Shown here piece after piece: positions 1,134 through 55,214 of a DNA stretch of 57,002 nt. The position numbers were made by a program, and so were the translations under genes. Numbering within the stretch: the first letter of the stretch is position 1; each line of letters opens with the position of its first letter. This DNA comes from a virus (Duplodnaviria > Caudoviricetes): positions 1-57,002 of the IMG/VR virus record IMGVR_UViG_3300020045_013711; one strand, written 5' to 3'. The notes below the pieces were generated by a model that was not told where the DNA came from, did no database searches, and saw only the letters and a list, made by a program, of their open reading frames with translations.

Positions 1134-1885
1134 GGTTTAAAAATTACAATCATACTGTCTTTTGTTCCGCTTTGAGTTTTTCCTTTAGAATTTAATGGTA
1201 AATAAAAATTACCATTAGCATCTATTTTACCAAACTTTATTCTACCTTTTACAAATTCAATCTCACTTGCATTTGGTTTGATCCATTCGTGAAATAATTT
1301 TGTGCTTGTTGATACAGGTATAAGAAAAACAGAAACTCTGCAAGCTACAATTTCATACTTTTTAGGCATTAATTCTGATTTCAGATACAATGGATGTTTT
1401 GGCGTTCCATCGTTCGACAAATCAATATAATGTAGGTTTTCAATTCCTTTTAACGGCTTGTAGTTTTCTCCAAATTTTTTACCCAATTTATTTACAATAG
1501 GAGCATTTCCCCAAGCACAAACTATCATCTCAGATTCTTTCGCCATAAAATCAATATGCCATTTATTTAACAAACCCATTGGTTCTTTAGTATTCAATAA
1601 TTCTTTTGGATTTGTAGAACGATAGGCGAATAAGTTTCCAACACATAAAGAACCAAAACCCCAATTCTTTGCAAATCCAATACATCGTCTAATTGTAGCA
1701 TCATCTATATTTGCATCAGCAGTTGATGGGTTTAGCATTAAGAACATAACTCTTGGTTTTGTTTCATCCCATTTTCTTTCAAGAGAATAACGGTATTTTT
1801 CACAATCCGAAAGAACAGCACTACGGCTAACAGCCATTTGGAGCGATTGGGAATTTGTGTTTTCTGAATTATTATTTTGTGTCAT
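1130..1885 (-). CDS. DUF1643-family protein fused to the C-terminal fragment of a phage adenine MTase
   Basis: YRYSLERKWD, MLNPSTAD, VGNLFAYRST, CAWGN and PKHPLY motifs; tail LIPVSTSTKLFHE...KDSMIVIF closely resembles ORF 10655..11086; likely start MTQ at 1885. Confidence 0.7.
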   Translation of the reverse strand: MTQNNNSENTNSQSLQMAVSRSAVLSDCEKYRYSLERKWDETKPRVMFLMLNPSTADANIDDATIRRCIGFAKNWGFGSLCVGNLFAYRSTNPKELLNTKEPMGLLNKWHIDFMAKESEMIVCAWGNAPIVNKLGKKFGENYKPLKGIENLHYIDLSNDGTPKHPLYLKSELMPKKYEIVACRVSVFLIPVSTSTKLFHEWIKPNASEIEFVKGRIKFGKIDANGNFYLPLNSKGKTQSGTKDSMIVIFKP

Positions 1886-1955
1886 AATGATGGTTTTTAT
1901 AGTTAATGATTTCGATTTTTTAGCCCCAACCACACCAAGTGGCAAAACGTTATAG
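1825..1955 (+). repeat. attC-like site A
   Basis: GGCTAAC; arms gccatttggagcgattggg / cccaaccacaccaagtggc; GTTATAG at 1949. Confidence 0.85.
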
Positions 1956-1961
1956 GCAAGC

Positions 1962-1995
1962 AAAAAGCCAATCATTACGGATAAAGATTGGCTTT
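1962..1995 (-). terminator. intrinsic terminator inside cassette
   Basis: aaagccaatc / gattggcttt stem with minus-strand U-tract, downstream of 2018..2203. Confidence 0.6.
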
Positions 1996-2017
1996 GAAAT
2001 TTTGGAAATTAGATGTT

Positions 2018-2203
2018 TTATTCTTTTTGTTTCTTCCAAACAAAAATCATTGATTTTGCCCAGCTTGGCAACTCTTTATTTGGTTGTGTCATTGATTTAA
2101 CAGAATCGACTGTTAAACCTACGATTTTAGCAATATCAGCATTGTTTAAATTAAACTCTTTTTTGAGTTCTTTAAAATCTAAATGTGTTGGAATTTTATC
2201 CAT
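2018..2203 (-). CDS. small HTH protein (cassette cargo)
   Basis: LNNADIAKIVGLTVDSVKSM helix-turn-helix pattern. Confidence 0.65.
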   Translation of the reverse strand: MDKIPTHLDFKELKKEFNLNNADIAKIVGLTVDSVKSMTQPNKELPSWAKSMIFVWKKQKE

Positions 2204-2204
2204 C

Positions 2205-2771
2205 TTATTTAATTCTTACTATTATTAAATCGAAGTCATTTTCTGTTTTTGTTAAAAATTCTTTATTTTTGGTTTTCTTTAAAACAACTAAAACGCTTCT
2301 CAAATAAACTATTTCATTTTTAGCTTTAAGATTTAAATTCAAAACCTTTCCTATTTCTAAATCTTCAATTAATTTTTCTTCTTTACCATATTTTTTTGAA
2401 GATTGACGACCTTCTAATTTTTTTTCGTCTATTTTTTTTACTCTTGCTAAACGAACTAATTCTCTTTTTAACTTTAGTCTATCTGTCTTGATTTCTAATG
2501 AAATATCTTTGATTGATTTTAATCCTAAATTTTGATTAATAAAATCAAAATTATCTATAACATTTTTAGATATTGGTCTAAAATCCAATCTAATATCTAA
2601 ATAAAGGAGAATTTTAATTAATCTATCTGATTTTATATTTAACTCTCCGTTTTCTATTTTTGATAAATTAGAGTGATCTTCCTCTAATAAATCCGCTAAT
2701 TCTCTTAGAGATAACATATAATTTTCTCTTGCTTTTTTTATTACTTTTCCAAAAAAGTTTAAATTTTCCAT
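2205..2771 (-). CDS. XRE/Cro-C1 family HTH regulator (cassette cargo)
   Basis: FGKVIKKARENYMLSLRELADLLEEDHSNLSKIENG. Confidence 0.8.
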   Translation of the reverse strand: MENLNFFGKVIKKARENYMLSLRELADLLEEDHSNLSKIENGELNIKSDRLIKILLYLDIRLDFRPISKNVIDNFDFINQNLGLKSIKDISLEIKTDRLKLKRELVRLARVKKIDEKKLEGRQSSKKYGKEEKLIEDLEIGKVLNLNLKAKNEIVYLRSVLVVLKKTKNKEFLTKTENDFDLIIVRIK

Positions 2772-2773
2772 TT

Positions 2774-3169
2774 TTATTTTACTATTTCGTTAATCTCATC
2801 TTCTAAAATCATTTCCTCAAAACAAAGTTTTTTTATCTGACTTGTTTTAACGTCAACTTGTCCAAATAAAATAACCAACCAAGTATGTCCGCAATCAATT
2901 CTAACACCGTCATTTTGATAAAAAACTGATTCTTTAGAAATACCTTCGTCTTCTAGTAATTCGAAAATTTCAGATAATCCTAAATCAAAATCACAAATAG
3001 TCATATAAGGCGTTAAATCAAAAAGACTAACACTTAAATCAAAAGTGTATAATTCATCACCAGTATTAACATAAGATTCCGCAGTTTCATCGCAAGGAGA
3101 ATAAAAACTACCACAGTTCATATATTCTAATCCTTTTTGCGCGCCTCTGTAAAATTTTTCAGTTCTCAT
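2774..3169 (-). CDS. hypothetical acidic protein (cassette cargo)
   Basis: 131 aa ORF, first gene of a 3-gene cassette. Confidence 0.65.
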   Translation of the reverse strand: MRTEKFYRGAQKGLEYMNCGSFYSPCDETAESYVNTGDELYTFDLSVSLFDLTPYMTICDFDLGLSEIFELLEDEGISKESVFYQNDGVRIDCGHTWLVILFGQVDVKTSQIKKLCFEEMILEDEINEIVK

Positions 3170-3202
3170 AATTTCTATTATGTTTAGATTTCTATACCGT
3201 AA

Positions 3203-3255
3203 AAGTAAACTATATTTTACTTACTACCAAATAATAAGTAAACTATTTTTTACTT
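3203..3255. promoter_or_regulatory. tandem palindromic operators AAGTAAA-N6-TTTACTT
   Basis: two copies, 3203-3222 and 3236-3255, upstream of the 3-gene HTH cassette operon. Confidence 0.65.
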
Positions 3256-3348
3256 ATTTTTATTTCCCTTTATTTTACAAGGTTTTTAGAGTAAAAATAA
3301 TTTTATCTAATTTCCAAAATTTCAAAGAACGTGGTGCAAATTGCCTGC

Positions 3349-3438
3349 CCATAACCTATGCTACTGGCAATTTGCAGAACTCCCTACTATTATTCACGTT
3401 ATGTGGTGGCAAACTGCCAGTAGCATCTGCCGTTATCG
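3349..3438 (+). repeat. attC-like site B (short class)
   Basis: TGCCCATAAC pairs with opener GTTATAGGCA (1949, one mismatch); arms atgctactggcaatttgc / gcaaactgccagtagcat; GTT at 3432. Confidence 0.9.
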
Positions 3439-3798
3439 TTCAGCTTGGTTGGAGTCGTTAACAAAATCGGTATAAAAAGAATCTATATTTCTTTTAATTT
3501 TGTTCATTAATCCTCTTAATATTCGCCCTTTACTAAACTTATCGTGTTCTCTCATTTTTGTATTTGGAAAGTGTACTGTAAAATGAAAATGTGAACCTTT
3601 TTCATCATCCCATCCTGAAAGAGAAGAACCTATATTGTTTTTATCTTTATGACCATAAGTTAAAAAAGCCTCTTCTATCTCTTCTAATGCTTTTACATCA
3701 ACTCCTAATCCTTCCCAAGTGTCATAAGGATATATTGATGTTGCGTGGTTTTCTTTAAAAAACTCAACTGCTTCGGGTTTTAATCTGTAGTTTTTCAT
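3433..3798 (-). CDS. hypothetical protein (cassette cargo)
   Basis: likely start MKNYRLK at 3798; TAA stop lies in the GTTA box. Confidence 0.7.
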   Translation of the reverse strand: MKNYRLKPEAVEFFKENHATSIYPYDTWEGLGVDVKALEEIEEAFLTYGHKDKNNIGSSLSGWDDEKGSHFHFTVHFPNTKMREHDKFSKGRILRGLMNKIKRNIDSFYTDFVNDSNQAER

Positions 3799-3825
3799 TT
3801 TGTTTGTGGTTAAAAAAAGCCGAAA

Positions 3826-3963
3826 CGATAACAATTTCTTTGCGATGATTTTCGGCTTGGTTTATAAATTTTTTTATTGTTTTGTGTCTGTTTTGCTTGG
3901 GTCTTAATCCGAAGCTTGGTTTTGTGCAACTCCGAAAAACCTCGCAAAGAATCAACGTTATAA
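3826..3963 (+). repeat. attC-like site C
   Basis: AACGATAAC pairs with GTTATCGTT (3432); arms ttctttgcgatgattttcgg / ccgaaaaacctcgcaaagaa; GTT at 3957. Confidence 0.9.
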
Positions 3964-3976
3964 GCAATTGTAACAA

Positions 3977-4204
3977 CTACTCGGTTAAATGAAGTGAACA
4001 TAATCTAAAATGATGTATTTTATCAAATCGAATTTTATTTTCATCTTTTAATAAATGATTGTAATAATCTTTGTTGTAAAATTTACAGGTTTCTTTTTTC
4101 GAGCAAATTTCAACTCCTTTTTTAAAATTATAATACTGTCCAGAACAACTGCTTATAACATCGTGTATAATAGATTGCTTGTTTGGGTCTGTGTTTTCAG
4201 GCAT
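3977..4204 (-). CDS. Cys-containing hypothetical protein (cassette cargo)
   Basis: 75 aa; start codon inside attC D loop. Confidence 0.6.
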   Translation of the reverse strand: MPENTDPNKQSIIHDVISSCSGQYYNFKKGVEICSKKETCKFYNKDYYNHLLKDENKIRFDKIHHFRLCSLHLTE

Positions 4205-4286
4205 CTGTTTTTAATTTAATGATTGGTAATTTTTGGAGGTATCAGGTTTAATCGGCGCAACCTCTTATACACGCCGTCCGTTACTA
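4153..4286 (+). repeat. attC-like site D
   Basis: TGCTTATAAC pairs with GTTATAAGCA (3957); arms cgtgtataatagattgc / gcaacctcttatacacg; GTT at 4280. Confidence 0.9.
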
Positions 4287-4697
4287 GCTATGTTGCTTAC
4301 TAAGTTCGTTTAGTGCTGAAATCATATTTTCAAAAGCCTTGTCGAACTCCTTTTCAGATATTTCTTTTTGCAAAGAATGAACATATCCGTAATCTATTTT
4401 TTGTGTAGAAACGTTTCCATCTTTATCAGTTTGAAACGAATATCCTTTATAATGACACGCAACACCATTCCCGCCTGTATCATATAAATCCTCAGGCTTT
4501 ATTTCAGTTATTTTCGTGTATAACCACCAATAATCAGATGGTTTCTCAGGACAACTGTAGTTATTTCTGTTTTTAAAACATTTCCCTTCTAATTTTTTAA
4601 ATTCAGGATAATGCTTTTCGATTAATTCTTGATTTTCTTTTTCGGAAATTAGCTTCAATTGTTTTTTAAGCTCTTCTTTTGATAATAAATTTTCCAT
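4284..4697 (-). CDS. hypothetical protein (cassette cargo)
   Basis: likely start MENLLSK at 4697. Confidence 0.7.
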   Translation of the reverse strand: MENLLSKEELKKQLKLISEKENQELIEKHYPEFKKLEGKCFKNRNNYSCPEKPSDYWWLYTKITEIKPEDLYDTGGNGVACHYKGYSFQTDKDGNVSTQKIDYGYVHSLQKEISEKEFDKAFENMISALNELSKQHS

Positions 4698-4721
4698 ATT
4701 GTTTGGTGTTAAAAACACAGC

Positions 4722-4855
4722 TAGTAACACATAATTGTAGCAATAGCTGTATGGTTTTTGCATTTAATGTTTTGCGTTTTCTTGTTTTTATCAGTTTTTA
4801 ACCGAATGATAATTTTGTGTCAGCACGCTACTGCTACAATTATCCAACGTTACCT
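4722..4855 (+). repeat. attC-like site E
   Basis: AGCTAGTAAC pairs with GTTACTAGCT (4280); arms ataattgtagcaatagc / gctactgctacaattat; GTT at 4849. Confidence 0.9.
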
Positions 4856-4876
4856 GCAAGTGCTATATTCGTGCTT

Positions 4877-5584
4877 TTAAGAACTTTTTGCACCTGTGTA
4901 AGTAAATAATTTTTCAATTGCTTTTTTACTTCCTGTATCTTGTGTTAATGAGCTTACAATTTCTTTACTCCAGATACATTTAAAGTCATTTGGCGCATTA
5001 TATTCACTAACAAACACAATGTGACCTTCGTTTGATTTATCTCTGCACCATTGCCAGAAATCAGCGTGATTAAACCCGTCTTTATAAGATGTTGTTCCTT
5101 CGTATGGTGGGTCGCAATAAATCAGGCTATTATCAGGAATTTGTAATTTATCGTAACTTTCATTTACAAATCTAATTCCTTTTAAACTTTCGCTTTGGTT
5201 CAATGCGTTTTTGTAGGCTTCATTTACATAATCACGTTTATTTAATCCGTCGCGACACCAGCCTCCAAGCCATTTACCGCTATAAGAAAATGCAAATCCT
5301 GCATAACCTTTGTATTTATAATCATCACTTTTTCGTAATGATTTATAATCCTCTTCAGTAAACTCACGATTATTTTTTGGTAAGTCACAAATACAATCTC
5401 TTATCGCAATTAAGGCATCAATTAGATAATTATTAATATCTGCTCCAATTCTTTTACCTTGTACTTTATCAATTAAATTTGCGCCTCCTACAAATGGTTC
5501 GACCCAAGTTCTTTGCTCTCTTTCTTTTAACATTATCGGCAGTATTTCTTTTGCTATTCGATTTTTTGAACCCATATATTTCAT
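4877..5584 (-). CDS. DNA adenine methyltransferase, Dam/D12-like (cassette cargo)
   Basis: KYMGSK, EPFVGGAN (motif I), IYCDPPY (motif IV). Confidence 0.9.
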   Translation of the reverse strand: MKYMGSKNRIAKEILPIMLKEREQRTWVEPFVGGANLIDKVQGKRIGADINNYLIDALIAIRDCICDLPKNNREFTEEDYKSLRKSDDYKYKGYAGFAFSYSGKWLGGWCRDGLNKRDYVNEAYKNALNQSESLKGIRFVNESYDKLQIPDNSLIYCDPPYEGTTSYKDGFNHADFWQWCRDKSNEGHIVFVSEYNAPNDFKCIWSKEIVSSLTQDTGSKKAIEKLFTYTGAKSS

Positions 5585-5616
5585 AAGATATTTTGTTTTA
5601 AACAAGCCACACCAGC

Positions 5617-5748
5617 AGGTAACAAGTGCTTGAAGAAATGGCTTTATTTGTTTTTAATTTAAAGATTAGTTTTTGTCTGTGATGTCTGTTTTTAATTAGA
5701 TGATTTGGCGTACTTGCACGCCACTTCGTCAAGCACCATACGTTATGG
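5617..5748 (+). repeat. attC-like site F
   Basis: GCAGGTAAC pairs with GTTACCTGC (4849); arms gtgcttgaagaaatggc / gccacttcgtcaagcac; GTT at 5742. Confidence 0.9.
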
Positions 5749-5749
5749 G

Positions 5750-6172
5750 CTATGCAGTTGGAACGGCATAGCTTTGTTTTATATATTTCATCAATAAATT
5801 TTGATTGCTAGAAATCCTTGGATTATAATCAAATCTGATAAAATCAACCAAATTCACTTCTTCGGAAATAGAAATAAAATCTTCTAATGAAATTGTTTTT
5901 ACAAAATCGGCTTTATCCATTCTTAAAGAATAAGTACCGTCTTCTTTGTATTTTTTTATTCTACATTCAATATCAATTACAGTTTGAATTTTATTATTGA
6001 AATGTCCGCTTTGAAGTTCCCAAAAACAGCAGTCGATATCAATCCCAAATTTATCTTCAAAAACTGCAAATGAATCAACACTTAATTTTTGATTTTCAGG
6101 TAATTCAATAGCTAAAAATTGTTCTAATTTTTCTTTTGAAACTTTCTTTACTTTGATGTCTTGTATTTTCAT
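5750..6172 (-). CDS. hypothetical protein (cassette cargo)
   Basis: 140 aa ORF filling the cassette. Confidence 0.7.
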   Translation of the reverse strand: MKIQDIKVKKVSKEKLEQFLAIELPENQKLSVDSFAVFEDKFGIDIDCCFWELQSGHFNNKIQTVIDIECRIKKYKEDGTYSLRMDKADFVKTISLEDFISISEEVNLVDFIRFDYNPRISSNQNLLMKYIKQSYAVPTA

Positions 6173-6205
6173 TTTTGATAATTTTAGTTACCGAAAAAGC
6201 ACAGC

Positions 6206-6340
6206 CCATAACAAGTGATATGAGCGATTTTCGGCATCGTGATTATTGATTTATTGTTTTGTACTTGGTTTGTTCTGTGACAGCGGAAGGATTACGGCTT
6301 ACTACTCCGAAAATCCGCACATATCACTGAACCGTTATCA
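6206..6340 (+). repeat. attC-like site G
   Basis: AGCCCATAAC pairs with GTTATGGGCT (5742); arms agtgatatgagcgattttcgg / ccgaaaatccgcacatatcact (one bulged C); GTT at 6334. Confidence 0.9.
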
Positions 6341-6341
6341 C

Positions 6342-6554
6342 TCATTTTATAGAACGTTTGCTGATAACGAGTTCAGATTTCCGAATGATGCAAATTTCAT
6401 TCTCAAAAGGCGTTTCAAAATTCCATCTATCAAGCGTATATTTTGAGATTCCGATTTCGTGAGTATTGCATAATATTGTTAAATCCCCGTAATAAAAATG
6501 CTTTTCGTTTTCGAGTGCATTTTTAAATTCAATGTGAAATAGTTTTTTATTCAT
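6342..6554 (-). CDS. hypothetical protein (cassette cargo)
   Basis: 70 aa ORF. Confidence 0.6.
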   Translation of the reverse strand: MNKKLFHIEFKNALENEKHFYYGDLTILCNTHEIGISKYTLDRWNFETPFENEICIIRKSELVISKRSIK

Positions 6555-6670
6555 TTTTTTTTATTTTAATAAAAGAAAGGTTTTCGCCTATATTTACTTT
6601 TATATGTTTTTCAATAAAAGGTTTACAATTCTGAACTTCAACTAATTTGTTGCTTTTCCTTTCTTTAAAT

Positions 6671-6883
6671 TTAAACTTTTATTTTGCTAAGTTCTTTTTT
6701 TACTCTGTCACGATATATTTTAAAAAACTCTATGTTGTTATCTATAAAATCTTTAGACTCTGTTCTTTTATCTGATTCCCAATAATCAACTGCGTTTTCA
6801 GTATAAGGAAGTATATTTCTTAATCTATACTCCCCTAATTCTTCATAAATACTTGGTATTTCAGGCTGTTTAAATTTTGACAT
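6671..6883 (-). CDS. hypothetical protein (cassette cargo)
   Basis: 70 aa ORF, coupled to upstream stop. Confidence 0.6.
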   Translation of the reverse strand: MSKFKQPEIPSIYEELGEYRLRNILPYTENAVDYWESDKRTESKDFIDNNIEFFKIYRDRVKKELSKIKV

Positions 6884-7155
6884 TATTTTTTGAAGTTTTT
6901 AAATTCTTCTTCTGTCATTTTTTCAAGTCTTGATTTCAATTCATTTTGATTTTCAATTCCTGATCCAAATCCTTCTATAAATAAACATTTGAACGCTTCT
7001 AATTTTTTGCTTTTGCTTAATTTAGAATATCTCACAAATCCTAAAGAATAGGTTTTTTCAATTTTAGCATTTTCTTCTTTAGTTCCGAAAATCTCAGTCA
7101 ATCCATTTACAATTGCTTCTGCTCCGTTTCTGTCTGTGTAGTAAGTAGTTTTCAT
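6883..7155 (-). CDS. hypothetical protein (cassette cargo)
   Basis: likely start MKTTYYT at 7155. Confidence 0.65.
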   Translation of the reverse strand: MKTTYYTDRNGAEAIVNGLTEIFGTKEENAKIEKTYSLGFVRYSKLSKSKKLEAFKCLFIEGFGSGIENQNELKSRLEKMTEEEFKNFKK

Positions 7156-7177
7156 AATTTCTATTTGTTTGATTTTG

Positions 7178-7209
7178 TTATACAAATATAGTGATTAATA
7201 TTTGTATAA
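7178..7209 (-). promoter_or_regulatory. cassette-internal Bacteroidota -7 promoter (TATATTTG) inside a 12-bp inverted repeat
   Basis: ttatacaaatat-N8-atatttgtataa; caaatata at 7183-7190 is TAnnTTTG on the minus strand. Confidence 0.6.
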
Positions 7210-7265
7210 ACCTAATTAAATTACAAAAATAAATGTTAAAATTTGTAAATGAATAAAAAAACGAG

Positions 7266-7362
7266 TGATAACACGTGCTATGAGCAATATTGCCTATAAC
7301 GTTTAGTGCTACACGACAACTTTTTTCTAAGGCAATACTGCACATAGCACTATCCGTTATCA
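7266..7362 (+). repeat. attC-like site H (short class)
   Basis: GAGTGATAAC pairs with GTTATCACTC (6334); arms gtgctatgagcaatattgcct / aggcaatactgcacatagcac; GTT at 7356. Confidence 0.9.
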
Positions 7363-7368
7363 GGAATA

Positions 7369-7572
7369 CTACGATTGTGGTTTTAAAGATGATTTTAATA
7401 CCATATCATATTCTTCCGGCATTTGAACTAATGGTGTTTGTTTTGAGAACATCGCAAGTATATTTTGTAACAACTCGTTTTGTTCTTTTGAAATACCTAA
7501 TTGTATTATTCTATCTCCTTTTTTCATAATAAGAGCAATATTTCCTTCTTTTTGTTCTTCAAATGTTGCCAT
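7369..7572 (-). CDS. hypothetical protein (cassette cargo)
   Basis: 67 aa ORF filling the cassette. Confidence 0.65.
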   Translation of the reverse strand: MATFEEQKEGNIALIMKKGDRIIQLGISKEQNELLQNILAMFSKQTPLVQMPEEYDMVLKSSLKPQS

Positions 7573-7602
7573 AACATATTTAGTTTTAAATTTCCGTACT
7601 CC

Positions 7603-7738
7603 TGATAACAGTTGCTATAAGAGATTTTCGGTATTGTTTATTAATCGTTTTATTTGTGTGTATTTGCGGTGATTTGGCAAAGCGGAAAGATGGTTTTATA
7701 TTCATCCGAAAATCCTCACATAGCACCAACCGTTAGTA
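7603..7738 (+). repeat. attC-like site I
   Basis: TCCTGATAAC pairs with GTTATCAGGA (7356); arms tgctataagagattttcgg / ccgaaaatcctcacatagca; GTT at 7732. Confidence 0.9.
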
Positions 7739-7744
7739 GCCATT

Positions 7745-8179
7745 TTAATAGCCATCTGCTCTAAATTCAAATTTTTCAAGTTCATTGTATTTATCCCAAA
7801 CCGCTTCAAGTTCTATTTGGAAAACTTCTACAATTTCAATTCTTCTTCTTTCAAAGATTGGTTTGAGTTGTAAAAATGCTTTTGGATAAAGTTGTTCAAA
7901 GTCTCCATACCACATTGCTCCACAAGTCAAATCTTTATTATCAACCATATCAATATATTTTTCATCAAACCATTCATAACCATAGGATTCTTTACTTAAT
8001 TTAGGTTTTGATTTAAAAAAGACGATACAATTATAATGACCTCCGTATATTCCTGCCCAAACTTTTCTAATAGATAATTTTGGAGGTTGAAATTCTGCTT
8101 TCACCACAAAACGGCTACTAACAGCCATTTGGCAAGATTGGGTATCAGGCTTGTCTGAATTATTGTCTTGTGTTTTCAT
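7745..8179 (-). CDS. hypothetical protein (cassette cargo)
   Basis: 144 aa; start inside attC J loop. Confidence 0.7.
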   Translation of the reverse strand: MKTQDNNSDKPDTQSCQMAVSSRFVVKAEFQPPKLSIRKVWAGIYGGHYNCIVFFKSKPKLSKESYGYEWFDEKYIDMVDNKDLTCGAMWYGDFEQLYPKAFLQLKPIFERRRIEIVEVFQIELEAVWDKYNELEKFEFRADGY

Positions 8180-8248
8180 TGTTTAGTTTTTAAGTTAATG
8201 TTTAGGATTTATTTACCCCAAACTACCACAAGTTGCAGGACGTTATGC
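8116..8248 (+). repeat. attC-like site J
   Basis: GGCTACTAAC pairs with GTTAGTAGCC (7732); sequence related to site A; GTT at 8242. Confidence 0.85.
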
Positions 8249-8270
8249 AGGATTGCTACATTTTCGTTTC

Positions 8271-8558
8271 TTAACAAAAATTAGCAATATTGCTAGTAAT
8301 TATATAATGTGATTTACAAGGAAAATTATAATTGCCTACAGAACCAATTAAAGATATTTTTTTACCATCAGAACTCTTCACAATTTCCCAGTTTCTTCCA
8401 CCGCCCAAGGGCGTTATTGTTTTTAATCCACAACCGCATAAGCAATTATGAGTTGCTGTTTTATATTTTTCGGATATGTATAATTTATTTTCCTCAATTA
8501 CTTCTGGAATGACATCGACAAATACAGGTTCAATTGTTACTTTTTTAATCGTTTTCAT
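8271..8558 (-). CDS. Cys/His-rich protein, DUF6527-like (cassette cargo)
   Basis: LYIS..Y.TATHNCLCGCG...SVGNYNFPCKSHY. Confidence 0.7.
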   Translation of the reverse strand: MKTIKKVTIEPVFVDVIPEVIEENKLYISEKYKTATHNCLCGCGLKTITPLGGGRNWEIVKSSDGKKISLIGSVGNYNFPCKSHYIITSNIANFC

Positions 8559-8590
8559 AATAAAATTTAGTTTTAATCATCCACAACCCC

Positions 8591-8724
8591 GCATAACAGT
8601 AGTCTTGAGCTAGTGGCAGTTGGTTTTGTATCCGAAAAGACTCGGATAGTATTAATTATTGTTTTATTTTTGTTGGCACTTATCTTGAATCGAGCCACCA
8701 GCACAAGGCTACAAAACGTTATCA
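8591..8724 (+). repeat. attC-like site K
   Basis: CCCGCATAAC pairs with GTTATGCAGG (8242, one mismatch); arms gtagtcttgagctagtggc / gccaccagcacaaggctac; GTT at 8718. Confidence 0.9.
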
Positions 8725-9084
8725 CTCAGCTTGTGAGCAACTTTGTGTTGAAAGAATTTTAATGGCATTTATTAGTCCATATTCTAAAGCATCTTCATAT
8801 TTTGAAAACAATTCTCCATAACCGTAATTACAATATTTTTCATCATCAACATTATTGATGGAAGTGGTAACACACACATCATATATTACTGGATGATTAT
8901 TTTGACTACTAAATTGATGTGATATTAATACATCTGTATTTTTTTGTTCTCGCAACCATTTTTGTAAAACAGATTGTGTTGGTTTTACTTCATAACATAT
9001 ACATTCAGTAAATCCTCCACAATTACAAGTTTTTAAATCAAAACCTATATTTTTTGCTAATTGAAATGTTTTATCAGAAATCAT
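8722..9084 (-). CDS. hypothetical phage protein (cassette cargo)
   Basis: 120 aa; PTQSVLQKWLRE...YEDALEYGL. Confidence 0.7.
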   Translation of the reverse strand: MISDKTFQLAKNIGFDLKTCNCGGFTECICYEVKPTQSVLQKWLREQKNTDVLISHQFSSQNNHPVIYDVCVTTSINNVDDEKYCNYGYGELFSKYEDALEYGLINAIKILSTQSCSQAE

Positions 9085-9108
9085 AATTTTGCGTTTAAAA
9101 AGCCGAAG

Positions 9109-9241
9109 TGATAACAGCTAGTATATTTCAGCTTGGCATCAGGCTTGATTAATAATTGATTTTGTGTCAGATTTATGGTTTCCCAACCGAAAGATTTGGC
9201 TTACTTGTCCCAGCCGAAATTATACTAGCGAACCGTTAACC
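9109..9241 (+). repeat. attC-like site L
   Basis: AGTGATAAC pairs with GTTATCACT (8718); arms gctagtatatttcagct / agccgaaattatactagc (one bulged T); GTT at 9235. Confidence 0.9.
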
Positions 9242-9607
9242 GTAATTCTCGTAACTATAGTCAATAAAAAGCTCTTCTTCTAAATCAATTTTAAATTGAA
9301 AACCATATCCCCAATGATTATCTCCGTTTTCATTAGCATTATTTCCACTTTCTGAAAATTCTACCCATAAATGACCTTCTGATAACCAGTTTGATAAAGT
9401 TAAATCATCAATTGTATCGCTTGTATCTGTTTGAAGTTCTTTAAAATCATAATTTAACGCTGTATATAATTCCTTTGCAAAATTATATTCTTCATCATTT
9501 TCTTTTAGATATTCTTCATAACTTTCTTGTGTCGGAAATTCTTTTAAATGATTAAGTTTTACTTTATTAAATATCTCTCTGTAATCTATAAAATCAACTA
9601 ATTGCAT
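9236..9607 (-). CDS. hypothetical acidic protein (cassette cargo)
   Basis: 123 aa; TAA stop lies in the GTTA box. Confidence 0.7.
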   Translation of the reverse strand: MQLVDFIDYREIFNKVKLNHLKEFPTQESYEEYLKENDEEYNFAKELYTALNYDFKELQTDTSDTIDDLTLSNWLSEGHLWVEFSESGNNANENGDNHWGYGFQFKIDLEEELFIDYSYENYG

Positions 9608-9617
9608 AATGAACTAC

Positions 9618-9751
9618 GGTTAACAGCTACTACAAAACATTTGGGTAACTGTGATTAATTAAAAAATAGTTTGTACCTGTTTTAATTCGTGAGTACTCGA
9701 ATATTTTAGCTTCCTTAATCCCAAACGATTTGTAGTAGCAAAACGTTACCA
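9618..9751 (+). repeat. attC-like site M
   Basis: TACGGTTAAC pairs with GTTAACCGTA (9235); arms gctactacaaaacatttggg / cccaaacgatttgtagtagc; GTT at 9745. Confidence 0.9.
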
Positions 9752-9757
9752 GTAATG

Positions 9758-9985
9758 CTACCCTCGCATACGGTTAACTCGAATTTGTAAATTTTCACGC
9801 TCTTCAAATAATTCACAAAGCCGTTTATTAAAATCATTATGACTACTTCCTTCTTTGGCTGTAACGTTTAATTCTTGCAATCCATTTAGTTTAATAGTTT
9901 CTCCTTTTTGAAGTCTATAAAGCATATCAATTGAACCGTTTATGATGTCAATTTTATTTTTCATATTTATTAAAAGTCTATTCAT
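9758..9985 (-). CDS. hypothetical protein (cassette cargo)
   Basis: 75 aa ORF filling the cassette. Confidence 0.65.
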   Translation of the reverse strand: MNRLLINMKNKIDIINGSIDMLYRLQKGETIKLNGLQELNVTAKEGSSHNDFNKRLCELFEERENLQIRVNRMRG

Positions 9986-10020
9986 TTTGATAAATTTAGC
10001 ATCCGAAAAAAAAGCACTAC

Positions 10021-10156
10021 TGGTAACAAGTGATATGAGCGATTTTCGGCATTGTGATTATTGATTTATTTTTTTGTACTTGGTAATATTATTTTGTGGC
10101 TGAAATATTGGCGATTCCTACTCCGAAAATCCGCACATATCACTGAACCGTTACCT
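10021..10156 (+). repeat. attC-like site N
   Basis: TACTGGTAAC pairs with GTTACCAGTA (9745); arms identical to site G; GTT at 10150. Confidence 0.9.
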
Positions 10157-10162
10157 GCTATG

Positions 10163-10576
10163 CTACCAATGAACTTCAAAGGGCATTTGTTCTATAATCT
10201 GTTTTCCAATTGGAATTGATAGGATTATATTTTTAAAGTCTTTAAAATCAATTTTTTCTTTTGTCCAAAAAACAGATTTTGTTCCACTTCTATTGTCTTT
10301 ACAACTCCCAGAAATTCCACAAATATAATATCCATCAATTTCTAAATAAGTTATTAATCCTTTGCCTGTATATGGTGGTACAATATCTTCTGGACTAAAC
10401 GGCAAATCTCTAAACCAAACTTTACTTTTCAAAAGCCTTTCTTTTTGCAAAATCCAAAAATAATGCCCTGCACTCGTTAAGTCTGTTCCAAAGTAATCAA
10501 GCACAGCAGGTAACAGCGGTTTTGTGCTATTGCCTAATTCGTCTTGAACCTTATTATTGTTTTGTTCTTCAATCAT
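10163..10576 (-). CDS. hypothetical protein (cassette cargo)
   Basis: likely start MIEEQNN at 10576, inside attC O loop. Confidence 0.7.
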   Translation of the reverse strand: MIEEQNNNKVQDELGNSTKPLLPAVLDYFGTDLTSAGHYFWILQKERLLKSKVWFRDLPFSPEDIVPPYTGKGLITYLEIDGYYICGISGSCKDNRSGTKSVFWTKEKIDFKDFKNIILSIPIGKQIIEQMPFEVHW

Positions 10577-10641
10577 TTGTCTTAAATTTAAAGTTTTAGG
10601 TGTGTTTTTAGGCAACATCACAAAGCCACGAACCGTTAGGG
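10508..10641 (+). repeat. attC-like site O
   Basis: AGCAGGTAAC pairs with GTTACCTGCT (10150); arms gcggttttgtgctattgccta / taggcaacatcacaaagccac; GTT at 10635. Confidence 0.9.
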
Positions 10642-10654
10642 CAAATAGCTCTAT

Positions 10655-11086
10655 TTAGTTTTTCAGAACAACTATCATACTATCGTGCATCCCGCTTTGT
10701 TTTGGTGTATAGATGTTTCCGTTTTCGTCAAAAGTTCCAAATCTTAATCTACCTTTTACGAATCGAATATCTTTTGCGTTTGGCAAGATCTTTTCGTGAA
10801 ATAATTTTGTTGAAGTACTTACCGGAATAAGCAAAACACATACATTCCCTTTTTTGCTTTCTTCAATTGCTCTATCAACAAAAGCTTCTTTTAATTTTCG
10901 GGAATAAGGAGGATTAATAAAATTAGATTTCCCCCATTTTATCAACAATCCATCTTTATCACTTGTAATTTTTTCTTTGTTCAGCGGGCAAGGGTCAAAA
11001 TCAAAATTAAATTCAGCATTCAATTCATCATAAAATTCTTTTGGAGTAGCCCAATTGTCTGAGTGATCTAAATTTCTATTTTTCAT
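10655..11086 (-). CDS. phage DNA N6-adenine methyltransferase (cassette cargo)
   Basis: DNWATP, FDFDPCP, FINPPYS motifs of the short phage Dam family. Confidence 0.85.
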   Translation of the reverse strand: MKNRNLDHSDNWATPKEFYDELNAEFNFDFDPCPLNKEKITSDKDGLLIKWGKSNFINPPYSRKLKEAFVDRAIEESKKGNVCVLLIPVSTSTKLFHEKILPNAKDIRFVKGRLRFGTFDENGNIYTPKQSGMHDSMIVVLKN

Positions 11087-11289
11087 AATTTATTAAATAT
11101 TCGTCTAACAAAATATCCTCTTACAATGCTTGTAATAAAAAACACAGCGGTAATAATTAGATTTTGAGAAAATGTTACAGGAATATTTAATAATGGATAA
11201 ATAATAGCCTGTATTAATATTGAAGTCAGTAACCCGATTATCGTTTGAGATACGCTTTCTATTATTGAATGTTTTTTGGTTTGTTTCAT
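11083..11289 (-). CDS. small membrane protein (cassette cargo)
   Basis: MKQTKKHSIIES, two hydrophobic helices, RGYFVRRIFN. Confidence 0.7.
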   Translation of the reverse strand: MKQTKKHSIIESVSQTIIGLLTSILIQAIIYPLLNIPVTFSQNLIITAVFFITSIVRGYFVRRIFNKL

Positions 11290-11320
11290 AACAACTTTTT
11301 CGTTAAAAATTCACTACTTG

Positions 11321-11411
11321 CCCTAACATATGCTACAAGCTATATGCACGGCTTTAGTTTTTCAGTTCATATTTATTGCTGGCATACAGCTTGTAGCATC
11401 CGCCGTTATCG
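11321..11411 (+). repeat. attC-like site P (short class, last in array)
   Basis: TTGCCCTAAC pairs with GTTAGGGCAA (10635); arms atgctacaagctatatgc / gcatacagcttgtagcat; GTT at 11405. Confidence 0.9.
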
Positions 11412-11510
11412 CCAATACTACAATCTTTTTCTATTAATAATCAATACTCCAATCAATAGAATTACAGATATTAATACCCCTAAGTCATTTATTACATTTT
11501 GTATCATAAT

Positions 11511-11720
11511 CTAGTTACTTTTAATAATCACCTGATCCATTTTAAAAACCCCTGTTCTCCTTATTTTATCGCCATTGAATTCTACTATAAAAATAGAATC
11601 ATTCACTATTTTAAAGTCGTTTGTGTAGAAATTACCGTTTGGAGTAATTATCTTGTAGTTTGTAGCGTAGTGAACTTTGCAACCTACGCATAAAATGAGT
11701 ATTAGTATTAATTTTTTCAT
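11511..11720 (-). CDS. putative lipoprotein
   Basis: MKKLILILILCVGC lipobox-like signal; start 11720. Confidence 0.6.
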   Translation of the reverse strand: MKKLILILILCVGCKVHYATNYKIITPNGNFYTNDFKIVNDSIFIVEFNGDKIRRTGVFKMDQVIIKSN

Positions 11721-11753
11721 TTTGTTGATTTTAATTATTGTTATTTCAATACT

Positions 11754-11825
11754 CAAATGTATAAAATATACATTTACAAAAAACATTTATTTTTGTTTTA
11801 TGGTTAATTTATATTGATTATAAAT
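11754..11825 (-). promoter_or_regulatory. promoter (TACATTTG) facing the cassette array, with TGTAT-N5-ATACA operator and 19-bp palindrome
   Basis: caaatgtataaaatatacattt at 11754-11775; atttatattgattataaat at 11807-11825. Confidence 0.65.
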
Positions 11826-11828
11826 AGC

Positions 11829-11856
11829 AAAAACCCCGAAACAATTCGAGGTTTTT
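11829..11856 (-). terminator. intrinsic terminator after portal
   Basis: aaaaaccccgaa / ttcgaggttttt. Confidence 0.65.
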
Positions 11857-11874
11857 ATAATAAGCTAAATATTT

Positions 11875-52032: not shown

Positions 52033-52061
52033 AAAAAAACCACTCAAATATGAGTGGTTTT
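52033..52061 (-). terminator. intrinsic terminator
   Basis: aaaaccactca / tgagtggtttt. Confidence 0.7.
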
Positions 52062-53105: not shown

Positions 53106-53127
53106 GATATTTATATTGTTTTAATTA

Positions 53128-53928
53128 TTATACTGGTAAATTTAGTTTAGATAAAGAAGCTGTTGAAACATGACAATAAATTTCAGTAGTTTTTACATTG
53201 GCATGACCTAGGTGCTGTTGAATGTATCTAAGATCAGTTCCAGCTTCTAATAAAGCCGTTGCGTTTGAATGTCTAAGAATATGCATATGATATTCTTTTC
53301 CAATATATTTCTTTACTAATTGGTTACAGCTAGTTTCGCTATATTGATTTGAAAACTGTCCATTAAATAAATATTCTTTTGGTTGGTATTCAGTAAAATA
53401 AATCCTAAGAAGTTCCAAAACTTTTTGACTTAACGGAACAATTCTGTCTTTATTGCCTTTTGAATTTCTAATAAAAATTATCATGCGTTTGCTGTCAATA
53501 TCAGCTATCAAAAGATTAATTACCTCAGATACTCTCATTCCTGTTGAATAAGTCATTGTGAGCAACGCTTTATGTTTGGTATTGGTTATTTTATCCAATT
53601 GCGATAATAGAAACTCCTTCTCAATTATTTTAGGTAACTTTTTTTCCGACCTAGGATATTTTATATATTTAAACTTCATAGGTTGCTTTACAACCATTTC
53701 ATAAAATAATTTCAAAGCCGAAATACTATGAGCCATTGAGTTCCTTGTCTTGAATTGTAATAACCAATTTTTTATAGCTGTTTCATTTATTTTTGAAGGC
53801 TCAGTAAATTGTTCTTGGTTTCGTAAAAATAAATCTACTTGTGCTGAATAGTTTTTAATAGTATTCTCAGCATAATTTTTTAGAGTTAACTCTTTCCGAT
53901 ACAATTCAAGGTACTTAGGAATATTCAT
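53128..53928 (-). CDS. tyrosine recombinase, candidate cassette integrase (no IntI-specific insertion)
   Basis: N-terminal NYAENTIKNY SAM-like domain; YSTGMRVSE, KGNKDR, HILRHS, LGH, TTEIY catalytic residues intact. Confidence 0.92.
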   Translation of the reverse strand: MNIPKYLELYRKELTLKNYAENTIKNYSAQVDLFLRNQEQFTEPSKINETAIKNWLLQFKTRNSMAHSISALKLFYEMVVKQPMKFKYIKYPRSEKKLPKIIEKEFLLSQLDKITNTKHKALLTMTYSTGMRVSEVINLLIADIDSKRMIIFIRNSKGNKDRIVPLSQKVLELLRIYFTEYQPKEYLFNGQFSNQYSETSCNQLVKKYIGKEYHMHILRHSNATALLEAGTDLRYIQQHLGHANVKTTEIYCHVSTASLSKLNLPV

Positions 53929-53929
53929 G

Positions 53930-53990
53930 GTATTAAGTATTAAGTTTATTGATGTTCACACATTTTTAGCACATATAGTAGTTATAGGCA
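53930..53990 (+). other. attI-like primary recombination site (G/TT at 53981)
   Basis: GTTATAGGCA opens cassette 1 but has no attC palindrome upstream; 53 bp from the integrase ATG; gtattaa-gtattaa direct repeat at 53930. Confidence 0.75.
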
Positions 53991-53999: not shown

Positions 54000-54704
54000 T
54001 TACCATAACGTGAGTTGATTTTTATAATCGACAAATCTTTTTTCTTGATTTTCAAAATATGTAGGATCAAGTTCTGAAGCAGTAAAATCTAATTTTGCTT
54101 TATCAGCCGATATTCTACTACTTCCTGATCCTAAATGTGTATCAAGTATTTTATCGCCTTCTTTTGCAAAGTTTTTAAATATCCAGTCATATAGCTTTAC
54201 AGGTTTTTGCGTTGGGTGTATTCTTTTTTCTTTGTCTTTCATATCGTGTTGTATCATTCCGTGCCAGGCAATTTTAACCGATTTAATGCTGTTTAATAAA
54301 GAACAGTAAGCAAGTTCGCCATCGCTATAAGTTGGCATTGTGACACATTTGTCCCAATAAATTCTGCCTCCAGATAAAAAGTCAAATGGGTAATAATTTA
54401 AACCCCAAATTATTTGTTGTTTAGATACTCTAAATAATTCATCAAAATATTCTTTGGTCGGTACATCGGCATCCCATTTTTGCTCTCCGTATTTTTTTGA
54501 TTTGGAAGCGCTTTTTTTACTTTGTTTTTTATCTGTACTATTTTTAACGTCAGCATTAATTCCGTAAGGCGGGTCAACTACTGCTAAATCAAAATAGTTA
54601 TCGGGGTATTGCTTCATTAATGCCACACAATCCATTAAATAAACCGTACTGCCTATAACAGTGGTTTGAAGCAAGTGGGCATCGGTCTTTAATTCATTAT
54701 TCAT
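54000..54704 (-). CDS. DNA N6/N4 amino-methyltransferase, beta class (first cassette)
   Basis: DLAVVDPPYG, IHPTQKPVKLY, ILDTHLGSGS. Confidence 0.9.
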   Translation of the reverse strand: MNNELKTDAHLLQTTVIGSTVYLMDCVALMKQYPDNYFDLAVVDPPYGINADVKNSTDKKQSKKSASKSKKYGEQKWDADVPTKEYFDELFRVSKQQIIWGLNYYPFDFLSGGRIYWDKCVTMPTYSDGELAYCSLLNSIKSVKIAWHGMIQHDMKDKEKRIHPTQKPVKLYDWIFKNFAKEGDKILDTHLGSGSSRISADKAKLDFTASELDPTYFENQEKRFVDYKNQLTLW

Positions 54705-54784
54705 TTTGTACTTGGATTAATAGTTTATAATTTAATGTTTGGGGCTTATTTCCCCCACCTGCGTCAAGCCACGAAACGTTATAA
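54653..54784 (+). repeat. attC-like site 1
   Basis: TGCCTATAAC pairs with GTTATAGGCA (53981); arms gtggtttgaagcaagtggg / cccacctgcgtcaagccac; GTT at 54778. Confidence 0.9.
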
Positions 54785-55082: not shown

Positions 55083-55214
55083 TTATAACAATGCATTGTA
55101 GCTATTATTGCATTGTTTTTTGATTTATAATTCAGTTTGTATTTGTTATAATTTGTGTTTAATCGAAGCATTGTTTTGTCCTTTCAATAACAGCGACAAT
55201 GCTCAACGTTAGCC
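55083..55214 (+). repeat. attC-like site 2
   Basis: GAGTTATAAC pairs with GTTATAACTC (54778); arms gcattgtagctattattg / caataacagcgacaatgc; GTT at 55208. Confidence 0.9.

What the first reader, a model, noticed from the sequence alone, without database searches (positions are those of the whole stretch)
1825..11775. All cassette genes are inverted relative to attI/attC polarity and appear to be transcribed from the far end of the array
Seen: attI position, TAACA...CGTTA asymmetry and T/G-rich loops put the canonical attC top strand on plus, yet every cargo ORF is on minus, so the attC sits at the gene's 5' end. A TAnnTTTG promoter at 11754-11761 points into the array from its distal end, and no plus-strand TAnnTTTG is visible near attI. 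Established: classical cassettes are ORF-then-attC, read from Pc near attI. Inference: the expression gradient would be reversed, with newly inserted cassettes farthest from the promoter.
Basis: partly seen in the sequence, partly recalled or inferred. Interest (0 to 1): 0.8.

Follow-up and report, generated by a model that had tools for sequence, protein, structure and literature searches.

The report
Phage gene cassettes point backwards
In this flavobacterial phage a row of swappable gene cassettes sits next to a small recombinase as in a bacterial integron, but each gene carries its folding DNA site in front of it and points towards the insertion site, so new genes are added at the tail end of the row.

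Summary
There are 21 hairpins (16 in 1825-11775); 20 of 21 read TAACA and 21 of 21 read CGTTA on plus. All credible ORFs are on minus.

The polarity is supported by comparison, not only by motifs.
- In 23 of 23 related sequences similarity is lost exactly at an AAC about 52 nt upstream of the recombinase ATG.
- Polaribacter phage Freya isolates differ by whole cassettes joined at that point.
- One window cassette recurs in two other phages with borders TAAC|...TAAC|.
- Homology that covers a hairpin extends into the downstream gene 41 times, and into the upstream gene at most 3 times.
- Across 57 related arrays plus the window, 287 of 308 intervals hold a gene co-directional with the recombinase.

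So a cassette is hairpin then gene, with the gene's 3' end at attI. This is the reverse of the classical layout, and it also differs from the Treponema type.

Transcription from the far end remains inference.
- The 11754 motif sits behind a strong terminator, and about 90% of cassettes lack a positioned consensus promoter.
- Against a simple gradient, there is an internal terminator-like hairpin (1965-1995) and there are cassette-borne promoter motifs.
- No RNA data were available.

The recombinase is Xer-like, not IntI. This scan has noted similar inverted, insert-less arrays on other DNA before.

The parts
53128..53928 (-). Xer-like tyrosine recombinase (266 aa), transcribed away from attI and in the same direction as all cassette genes
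   Evidence: Pfam Phage_integrase plus SAM_4. Best NCBIfam hits are XerA, XerD and XerC. The integron-integrase model TIGR02249 scores 147 bits against a cut-off of 265. Against VchIntIA (2a3v), query residues 175-208 stand opposite chain residues 178-259.
53929..53975 (.). attI: a block conserved among relatives between the recombinase ATG and the crossover box GTTA (53972-53975 on plus; TAAC on the coding strand)
   Evidence: In 23 of 23 sequences the block is conserved to the right of AAC and all similarity is lost to its left. L010 homology ends at 53984.
54656..54781 (-). Hairpin of the attI-proximal cassette (methyltransferase ORF 54000-54704, which starts inside the loop)
55086..55211 (-). 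Hairpin
55940..56068 (-). Hairpin
56359..56484 (-). Hairpin; this exact stretch is shared with L027
56801..56886 (-). Hairpin, short class
1828..1952 (-). Hairpin; the ATG at 1887 lies in the loop
1965..1995 (-). Terminator-like hairpin followed by a U-run, at the 3' end of the three-gene HTH cassette, inside the array
   Evidence: -13.1 kcal/mol, z -4.0
3352..3435 (-). Hairpin, short class
3829..3960 (-). Hairpin; homology with L050 begins exactly at 3960 and runs through the hairpin to 3802
4156..4283 (-). Hairpin; the ATG at 4204 lies in the loop
4725..4852 (-). Hairpin
5620..5745 (-). Hairpin
6209..6337 (-). Hairpin; a sister of 10024-10153 (85-91% identical)
6334..7366 (-). One complete cassette (hairpin 7269-7359, then ORFs 6883-7185, 6671-6883 and 6342-6554). 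It is shared with L026 and L050, with borders TAAC|...TAAC|. In L050 it is the cassette next to attI.
7183..7231 (-). Two TAnnTTTG motifs between hairpin and first ORF: candidate cassette-borne promoter
7606..7735 (-). Hairpin
8119..8245 (-). Hairpin (found by eye, below the detector's score); the ATG at 8179 lies in the loop
8594..8721 (-). Hairpin
9112..9238 (-). Hairpin
9621..9748 (-). Hairpin
10024..10153 (-). Hairpin
10511..10638 (-). Hairpin
11324..11408 (-). Distal-most hairpin (short class). Homology with L025 begins exactly at 11408 and runs to 11283.
11754..11761 (-). TACATTTG, a Bacteroidota-type -7 motif pointing into the array from its distal end
11828..11857 (-). Strong intrinsic terminator behind the portal gene, just upstream of the motif
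   Evidence: -15.1 kcal/mol, z -5.4
52036..52061 (-). Next strong terminator on the coding strand, behind the recombinase, four small ORFs and tRNA-Trp
   Evidence: -16.9 kcal/mol, z -7.0
53788..53795 (+). Plus-strand TAnnTTTG inside the recombinase gene, pointing at attI (the place of a classical Pc). It is probably chance, because every ORF it would read is antisense.

Best explanation
The stretch is the larger part of a 14.4-kb integron-like array. The array runs from attI (GTTA at 53972-53975), across the window's end and start, to 11408, and it lies next to an insert-less, Xer-like tyrosine recombinase.

Read on the coding (minus) strand, a cassette has this order:
- G, a spacer of about 4 nt, arm, loop, arm, T, GTTA and about 6 nt of cassette-specific sequence;
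- one or more ORFs;
- the complement of those 6 nt, then TAAC.

Exchange happens in the TAAC box. The hairpin therefore travels in front of its gene. Cassettes enter between the previous cassette and the recombinase gene, and every gene points at attI and on into the recombinase gene. These points are shown by comparison.

The following is inferred. The coding strand, which folds better, is the strand that is recombined. Most cassettes have no promoter of their own and are read from upstream, that is from the distal side, so the newest cassette is last in line and lies directly before the recombinase gene. A minority of cassettes bring their own promoter or terminator, so the gradient is broken into segments.
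For: Insertion site.
- In the window and 22 related loci, an AAC about 52 nt upstream of the recombinase ATG separates a conserved block from unrelated sequence.
- Freya_1, 2, 5, 6, 9 and 10 each join a different '...AAC' cassette end to the same sequence before the recombinase.
- Freya_8 lacks exactly one internal 902-nt cassette, with the borders at AAC| on both sides.

Cassette unit.
- Window 7366-6334 recurs in L026 and L050 with borders TAAC|...TAAC| and different neighbours. In L050 it abuts attI.
- There are 137 hairpin-covering matches at 85% identity or more. Of these, 128 stop within 12 nt before the 5' AAC.
- Of those 128, 41 run 13 nt or more on into the downstream gene region (14 of them by 40 nt or more).
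- The mirror case occurs 3 times, and never by 40 nt or more.

Orientation.
- In 287 of 308 inter-hairpin intervals the longest ORF is co-directional with the recombinase. Nine are opposite and 12 have none.
- Hairpins are 16 times denser upstream of the recombinase than downstream: 267 in 475 kb against 20 in 564 kb.

Uniform hairpin polarity.
- The coding strand reads TAACG in 236 of 283 elements and TGTTA in 237 of 283.
- The 5' spacer is 2-4 nt longer than the 3' spacer in 248 of 283.
- The coding strand folds more stably in 237 of 283, by 1.8 kcal/mol on average.

Expression.
- Only 47 of 283 hairpins have a coding-strand TAnnTTTG inside them or within 80 nt after them.
- Only 24 of 265 first ORFs have one 25-70 nt before the ATG.
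- Strong terminators lie only at 11857-11828 and 52061-52036.
Against: - There is no RNA evidence and no recombination assay.
- The 2-4 nt asymmetry sits on the arm next to the crossover box.
- The recombinase lacks the I2 segment, which in IntI docks the extrahelical bases (passages in PMC7790495).
- Hairpin and gene are not inseparable. Of the 137 matches, 87 cover the hairpin alone. One metagenome contig holds ORF 8722-9084 with both core boxes but neither hairpin at 90% identity (piece 8716-9116). Some exchange, or faster decay, must therefore also occur at the other box.
- The matches are not independent of each other, because the loci are related and the hairpins fall into families.
- A terminator-like hairpin lies inside the array (1995-1965).
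- Positioned promoter motifs occur in some cassettes, which argues against one smooth gradient.
- A motif search cannot see phage-specific promoters.
Confidence: 0.75

Rival explanations
1. Classical polarity. Each hairpin belongs to the gene upstream of it (ORF then attC), exchange happens at the far box of the hairpin, and the array grows from its other end.
For: - Stop codons abut or overlap the TAAC box: 199 of 308 lie within -12 to +15 nt of it.
- The longer spacer is on the 5' arm of the coding strand. As I recall (not checked here), the extra base of classical attC is on the 5' arm of the top strand.
- 87 of 258 match ends fall at the 3' GTT box.
Against: - Only 3 of 305 match starts fall at the 3' GTT box, and only 7 of 258 match ends fall at the 5' AAC.
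- None of the 137 hairpin-covering matches extends 40 nt or more upstream while keeping a sharp downstream border.
- Six ORFs start inside the hairpin that this model would assign to the previous cassette.
- The recombinase-side end of the array is a simple site and the far end is a complete hairpin.
- The Freya variants differ at the recombinase end.
Confidence: 0.05
2. These are not site-specific cassettes. The hairpins are regulatory or terminator stem-loops between early genes, like the promoter stem-loop modules of T4-type phages, and genes are shuffled by homologous recombination between them.
For: - Hairpins form sequence families that are reused beside unrelated genes: 87 of 137 matches cover the hairpin alone, and window 6209-6337 is a sister of 10024-10153.
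- Freya encodes a RecT-like protein.
Against: - The break falls at the same AAC in 23 of 23 attI regions and in 7 Freya junctions.
- The arrays always lie on one side of a tyrosine recombinase gene.
- Each cassette is framed by its own 10-nt inverted end pair, which a circular intermediate would bring together (sequences).
- There is no promoter motif in or within 80 nt after 236 of 283 hairpins.
Confidence: 0.07
3. The polarity is as in the best explanation, but there is no far-end gradient. Every hairpin-leader module drives its own gene from a promoter that the host consensus does not describe, or the array is read through from the late operon.
For: - Loops and leaders are conserved in composition and partly in sequence.
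- Positioned consensus motifs exist in a minority of cassettes.
- An internal terminator-like hairpin would otherwise silence about eight cassettes and the recombinase.
- A distal promoter motif is not enriched in relatives: 28 of 37 loci have one within 1.5 kb, and I estimate about 26 from the background rate.
Against: - Motif density on the coding strand inside hairpins equals background, 0.75 against 0.81 per kb.
- No conserved -33/-7 pair is visible in alignment A1.
Confidence: 0.25

Closest known systems
Classical integrons (class 1, Vibrio chromosomal integrons)
   Same: A tyrosine recombinase gene has its 5' end next to a simple attI site. The array consists of cassettes separated by imperfect hairpins with AAC...GTT boxes. 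Exchange occurs in the GTT/AAC box. Each cassette has ends that pair with each other. New cassettes enter at attI. Most cassettes are promoterless (features of classical integrons taken from passages in PMC8876359).
   Different: The recombinase lacks the IntI insert. The genes lie on the other strand, so the hairpin precedes its gene and the gene's 3' end faces attI. The recombinase is co-directional with the cassettes and downstream of them. No Pc reads into the array. The spacer asymmetry is next to the crossover box. Hairpin lengths fall into two narrow classes.
Treponema-type ('inverted') integrons
   Same: The recombinase and the cassette genes are co-directional.
   Different: There, intI is transcribed towards attI and the cassettes follow it (passage in PMC3607928). 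Here the recombinase is transcribed away from attI and the cassettes precede it. Those elements also have a true IntI.
Phage CALINs (Qi et al. 2023, PMC9892861)
   Same: Clusters of attC-like sites in phages, among them a Polaribacter phage, with DNA methyltransferases as cargo (section 3.4 read).
   Different: Those were reported without an integrase, as strays of bacterial integrons, with two to a few sites each and 'divergent directions' in P12002L. Here an array of 21 cassettes sits beside its own Xer-like recombinase with uniform polarity. My detector found no clear array of this family in P12002L.
Promoter stem-loop modules of T4-type phages
   Same: Stem-loops in front of small accessory genes in a plastic genome region.
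   Different: Here the borders are fixed to the base, the array lies beside a recombinase and an attI, and most hairpins have no promoter motif.
Xer-dependent dif modules of Acinetobacter plasmids (search listing only; otherwise recalled)
   Same: A Xer-type enzyme moves small gene modules.
   Different: Those use short double-stranded dif-like sites and host XerC/D. Here the sites are 84-130-nt hairpins and the enzyme is phage-encoded.

Membership tests
Integron | Integrase of the IntI clade with the extra I2 segment | tested here: not met
   TIGR02249 scores 147 bits against a cut-off of 265, and PRK15417 86 against 435. The best models are XerA, XerD and XerC, all also below their cut-offs. 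Against 2a3v, 34 residues stand opposite 82.
Integron | attI next to the integrase gene, used as the insertion point | tested here: met
   The same break point is seen in 23 of 23 sequences. The L050 cassette abuts attI. This is comparative evidence, not an assay.
Integron | attC: an imperfect hairpin with an inverse core ...AAC and a core GTT..., recombined as a folded single strand | tested here: inconclusive
   The form is met: 21 hairpins against about 1 in shuffles, and there is a strand bias in folding. IntegronFinder's attC model was not available, and folding during recombination is not testable here.
Integron | Cassette is ORF then attC, with the 5' end of the ORF towards attI | tested here: not met
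   The hairpin goes with the downstream gene (41 cases against 3). The genes point at attI (287 of 308 intervals).
Integron | Pc in or near intI that reads into the array | tested here: not met
   The one plus-strand motif (53788) would read every gene antisense.
Treponema-type inverted integron | intI transcribed towards attI, with the cassettes following it | tested here: not met
   The recombinase ATG at 53928 faces attI and the gene runs away from it. The cassettes lie upstream of it.
CALIN | attC cluster without an integrase nearby | tested here: not met
   The recombinase gene begins about 45 nt from the crossover box.
T4-type promoter stem-loop modules | A promoter coupled to each stem-loop | tested here: not met
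   236 of 283 hairpins have no coding-strand TAnnTTTG inside them or within 80 nt after them. Only the host consensus motif was searched.
Xer/dif modules | Short double-stranded dif-like sites (two arms around a 6-8 bp centre) at module borders | not tested
   No dif model was run. The borders here are 84-130-nt hairpins.

The most novel reading that the evidence does not exclude
This may be a separate, widespread cassette platform of Bacteroidota phages. In it, a Xer-like enzyme without the IntI insert recombines folded hairpins whose asymmetry is the mirror image of attC. Cassettes are leader-first modules, with the start codon often in the loop, so that the mRNA carries the same hairpin before each gene. 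Each new cassette is placed last in a read-through unit, directly before the recombinase gene, so that array content and read-through set the level of the recombinase.
Probability: 0.35. Interest if true: 0.85.

Novelty: new variant of a known kind. Interest (0 to 1): 0.7.

Why it matters
Integron biology rests on one layout: a promoter at attI, the newest cassette first and best expressed, and IntI with its I2 helix reading the folded attC. Here the same logic of capture is built the other way round, with a simpler enzyme, in phages, and with anti-restriction methylases among the cargo.

If the polarity and the enzyme are confirmed, three things follow. Hairpin-based cassette capture would not be tied to IntI. 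Surveys that rely on IntI and on attC orientation would miss a whole class of arrays. The cultured Freya and Polaribacter pair, whose ten isolates already differ by cassettes at attI, would become a tractable system in which to watch cassette turnover in a virus.

Tried and rejected
- Pattern alone. TAAC N60-90 CGTTA is not significant without the pairing test.
- Detector on Freya. The TAAC/GTTA detector found nothing in Freya_10. Freya's hairpins are longer, have other flanks, and were read by eye.
- RNA. No RNA holder is listed for window 3000-12500. The four runs that I laid are contigs and are probably DNA. They show neither strand, starts nor level. They show only that single hairpins and single cassettes occur elsewhere at 90% identity or more.
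- Distal promoter in relatives. 28 of 37 loci have a coding-strand TAnnTTTG within 1.5 kb upstream of the first hairpin. That is about what the background rate gives (my estimate is 26), so this test says nothing.
- Synteny of the distal flank. Only L016 has a homologue of the small ORF 11511-11720.
- Distant blastn of 53929-57002 against phage records found only methyltransferase genes.
- P12002L, the 'CALIN' phage of Qi et al., has no clear array of this family and no annotated integrase.
- Sigma-70 scans are at chance level and do not suit this host group.
- Long matches. Only 41 matches with 120 nt or more outside hairpins existed, and most were cut by locus ends, so I used hairpin-anchored extension instead.
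- Rows dropped.
  - Of the 80 loci, I copied 68 by hand into the scripts. Left out, unsystematically, for partial matches or little upstream DNA: L039, L040, L057, L058, L065, L067, L071 and L074-L078.
  - For some searches, only the 57 loci with more than 1500 nt upstream of the recombinase were used, plus the window.
- Literature. Searches for a published description found only Qi et al. 2023. The Freya paper (PMC8776804, term search of the full text) contains neither 'cassette' nor 'variable region'. Supplements were closed and may list the genome differences.

Full report
What is there. The window is a phage genome of the flavobacterial type, with 30% G+C. A portal gene lies at 11875-13308 and a terminase at 13326-14801, and 57 of 61 ORFs of at least 90 aa are on minus. 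An ORF runs unbroken across the 57002/1 joint, so the record is circular or permuted. A 266-aa tyrosine recombinase lies at 53128-53928 on minus.

To its right on plus begins a row of hairpins of the form TAAC, arm, loop, arm, GTTA. My detector finds 21 non-overlapping hits in the window, 20 of them in the row, while 30 shuffles gave a mean of 1.0 and a maximum of 4. One more (8119-8245) was found by eye and folds likewise. The row runs from 53972 across the joint to 11408, which is 14.4 kb or a quarter of the genome.

On plus, 20 of 21 read TAACA and 21 of 21 read CGTTA. The loops are A/C-rich on the coding strand. The only plus-strand ORF of at least 90 aa in the stretch (3180-3461) runs through a hairpin. 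There are two corrections. The crossover box is at 53972-53975. A plus-strand TAnnTTTG does lie near attI, at 53788-53795.

Which gene does a hairpin belong to? The sequence alone cannot say. Each ORF block is framed by a 10-nt inverted pair, GTTA plus six letters on one side and their complement plus TAAC on the other. That pair would close the hairpin stem in a circle whichever neighbouring hairpin goes with the block. I therefore looked for natural experiments.

(i) The ten isolates of Polaribacter phage Freya carry a recombinase 33% identical to the window's. They range in length from 43,978 to 48,920 bp. In the seven I read, the differences are whole blocks of small genes directly upstream of the recombinase gene, all co-directional with it. 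Freya_1, 2, 5, 6, 9 and 10 each join a different cassette end, '...AAC', to the same sequence 50 nt before the recombinase ATG. Freya_8 lacks exactly one internal 902-nt cassette, again from AAC| to AAC|. On the coding strand each Freya cassette opens with G, a few unpaired bases and a hairpin, sometimes with the start codon in the loop. It ends a few bases after its stop codon.

(ii) A scan of viral contigs gave 80 loci with recombinases 45-94% identical. In the window and the 22 loci I lined up, an AAC about 52 nt before the ATG separates a conserved block from sequence that is unrelated between loci.

(iii) Window 7366-6334 comprises a hairpin, a leader with two promoter motifs and three ORFs. 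It recurs in L026 and L050. All three copies begin at TAAC and end at TAAC, with different neighbours, and in L050 the copy abuts attI.

(iv) Among 137 matches (85% identity or more) that cover a whole hairpin, 128 stop within 12 nt before the 5' AAC on the coding strand. Of these, 41 run 13 nt or more on into the downstream leader or gene, 14 of them by 40 nt or more. The mirror case occurs 3 times, and never by 40 nt or more.

The hairpin therefore travels in front of its gene. The exchange point is the TAAC box on the coding strand, which is C|GTTA on plus. New cassettes enter next to the recombinase.

Is this a family trait? I analysed 68 of the 80 loci. Hairpins number 267 in 475 kb upstream of the recombinase and 20 in 564 kb downstream. 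Their lengths cluster at 84-90 and 121-128 nt. Across the 57 loci with more than 1.5 kb upstream, plus the window:
- In 287 of 308 inter-hairpin intervals the longest ORF is co-directional with the recombinase. Nine are opposite and 12 have none.
- The coding strand reads TAACG in 236 of 283 elements and TGTTA in 237 of 283.
- The spacer after the first box is 2-4 nt longer than the one before the second box in 248 of 283.
- The coding strand folds more stably than its complement in 237 of 283, by 1.8 kcal/mol on average.
The last point fits selection on that strand, either as single-stranded DNA or as mRNA. The elements are related, so the counts overstate the independent evidence.

Compared with integrons. 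On plus the layout is the classical one: recombinase gene leftwards, simple site, hairpin-separated cassettes, exchange in the GTT box, and a complete hairpin at the far end. Classical features are taken from passages in PMC8876359. Three things differ.
- The enzyme is not IntI. It scores below the curated cut-offs of the integron-integrase models and is nearest to XerA, XerC and XerD. Where VchIntIA has 82 residues, including the IntI-specific segment, it has 34. In IntI, the I2 helix docks the extrahelical bases of attC (passages in PMC7790495).
- The genes are on the other strand. A cassette is hairpin then gene, with its 3' end at attI, and the recombinase gene lies downstream of the cassettes and is co-directional with them. 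This is not the Treponema layout, in which intI is transcribed towards attI and the cassettes follow it (passage in PMC3607928).
- The asymmetric spacer lies next to the crossover box. As I recall, and did not check here, the extra bases of classical attC lie on the other half.
One can equally say that the genes are inverted or that the exchange has moved to the other box. Only an assay can tell which strand is cut.

Expression. This part stays inference. The motif TACATTTG at 11754-11761 on minus is real. It stands 27-34 nt before the ATG at 11720 and just behind the strongest terminator of the region (11857-11828, -15.1 kcal/mol). The next strong terminator on that strand is at 52061-52036, behind the recombinase, four small ORFs and tRNA-Trp. 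Inside the window's array, the only intergenic coding-strand motifs are at 7183 and 7224.

In the family the motif is no denser inside hairpins than in the background, 0.75 against 0.81 per kb. Only 47 of 283 hairpins have one inside them or within 80 nt after them. Where the motif does occur before an ORF it peaks 20-49 nt before the ATG, and the opposite strand shows no such peak. So a minority of cassettes, 24 of 265 first ORFs, probably have a real promoter. Freya cassettes C and D do. Most cassettes are thus promoterless by the host consensus, as in integrons, and given their direction they can only be read from the distal side.

Three points speak against one smooth gradient. A terminator-like hairpin with a U-run lies at 1995-1965, behind the three-gene HTH cassette (-13.1 kcal/mol). 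Some cassettes carry their own promoters. A distal promoter motif is not enriched in relatives. Phage-specific promoters would also escape this search. No RNA run holds the stretch.

What does not fit. Hairpins are reused beside unrelated genes. Of the 137 matches, 87 cover the hairpin alone. Window 6209-6337 and 10024-10153 are 85-91% alike with different neighbours. One metagenome contig has ORF 8722-9084 with both boxes but neither hairpin at 90% identity. So either the second box is also sometimes used, or hairpins are replaced or converted.

Known or new. Qi et al. 2023 (PMC9892861; abstract and section 3.4 read) reported attC clusters without an integrase in phages, one of them a Polaribacter phage with 'divergent' sites. 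They did not link them to a Xer-like enzyme or to a polarity. The Freya paper does not mention cassettes (term search of the full text; supplements not seen). Four literature searches found nothing closer. Within this scan, similar insert-less arrays with inverted cassettes were noted before, both on this genome and on other DNA. Those are unchecked notes.

Verdict. The polarity is well supported by comparison. Far-end transcription and a reversed gradient are likely in outline but unproven, and are probably broken into segments. This is a new variant of the integron kind.

Noticed in passing
window 56985-57002 joined to 1-361: An ORF on minus runs unbroken across the end and start of the window, so the record is circular or circularly permuted, and the array spans the joint.
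   Followed up: partly
L001, L002, L003-L006, L087-L090, L092 (Polaribacter phages Freya_1, 2, 5, 6, 8, 9, 10): Isolates of one phage species from one host differ by whole cassettes at attI, and in one case (Freya_8) by one internal cassette. The paper that describes them has no occurrence of 'cassette' or 'variable region' in its main text.
   Followed up: yes
57 related loci and the window; window 6209-6337 and 10024-10153: Hairpins form sequence families that recur beside unrelated genes. 87 of 137 hairpin-covering matches end at both boxes, which suggests a second break point or conversion of hairpins.
   Followed up: partly
68 related loci: Hairpin lengths (AAC to GTT) fall into two narrow classes, 84-90 and 121-128 nt, throughout the family.
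   Followed up: no
window 11408-11875 and 52036-53128: The array and recombinase are set between the portal gene and the scaffold and capsid genes, that is inside the structural module. The block ends with tRNA-Trp (52120-52191) and a strong terminator.
   Followed up: no
hairpins of the family: On the non-coding strand, TAnnTTTG is about twice as dense inside hairpins (1.54 per kb) as in the arrays overall (0.93 per kb). This may only reflect the T/G-rich loops, or it may mean antisense starts.
   Followed up: no
window 1992-2014 and 3305-3327: A perfect 23-nt inverted repeat encloses the three-gene HTH cassette just inside its ends.
   Followed up: no
window 3000-12500, runs X1, X2, X5, X8: Contigs of wastewater and aquatic runs hold single hairpins (for example 4725-4852, 9112-9238, 10024-10153) or single cassettes at 90% identity or more, often ending at hairpin borders. 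The cassettes and hairpins therefore circulate beyond this phage.
   Followed up: partly
window 53929-53971; alignment: The attI block holds a tandem repeat next to the recombinase ATG and a stretch conserved in 23 sequences. These are possible binding sites or the recombinase's own promoter.
   Followed up: no
L091 (Polaribacter phage P12002L): This is the phage in which others reported a CALIN with methyltransferases. It has no annotated integrase, and my detector found no clear array of this hairpin family.
   Followed up: partly
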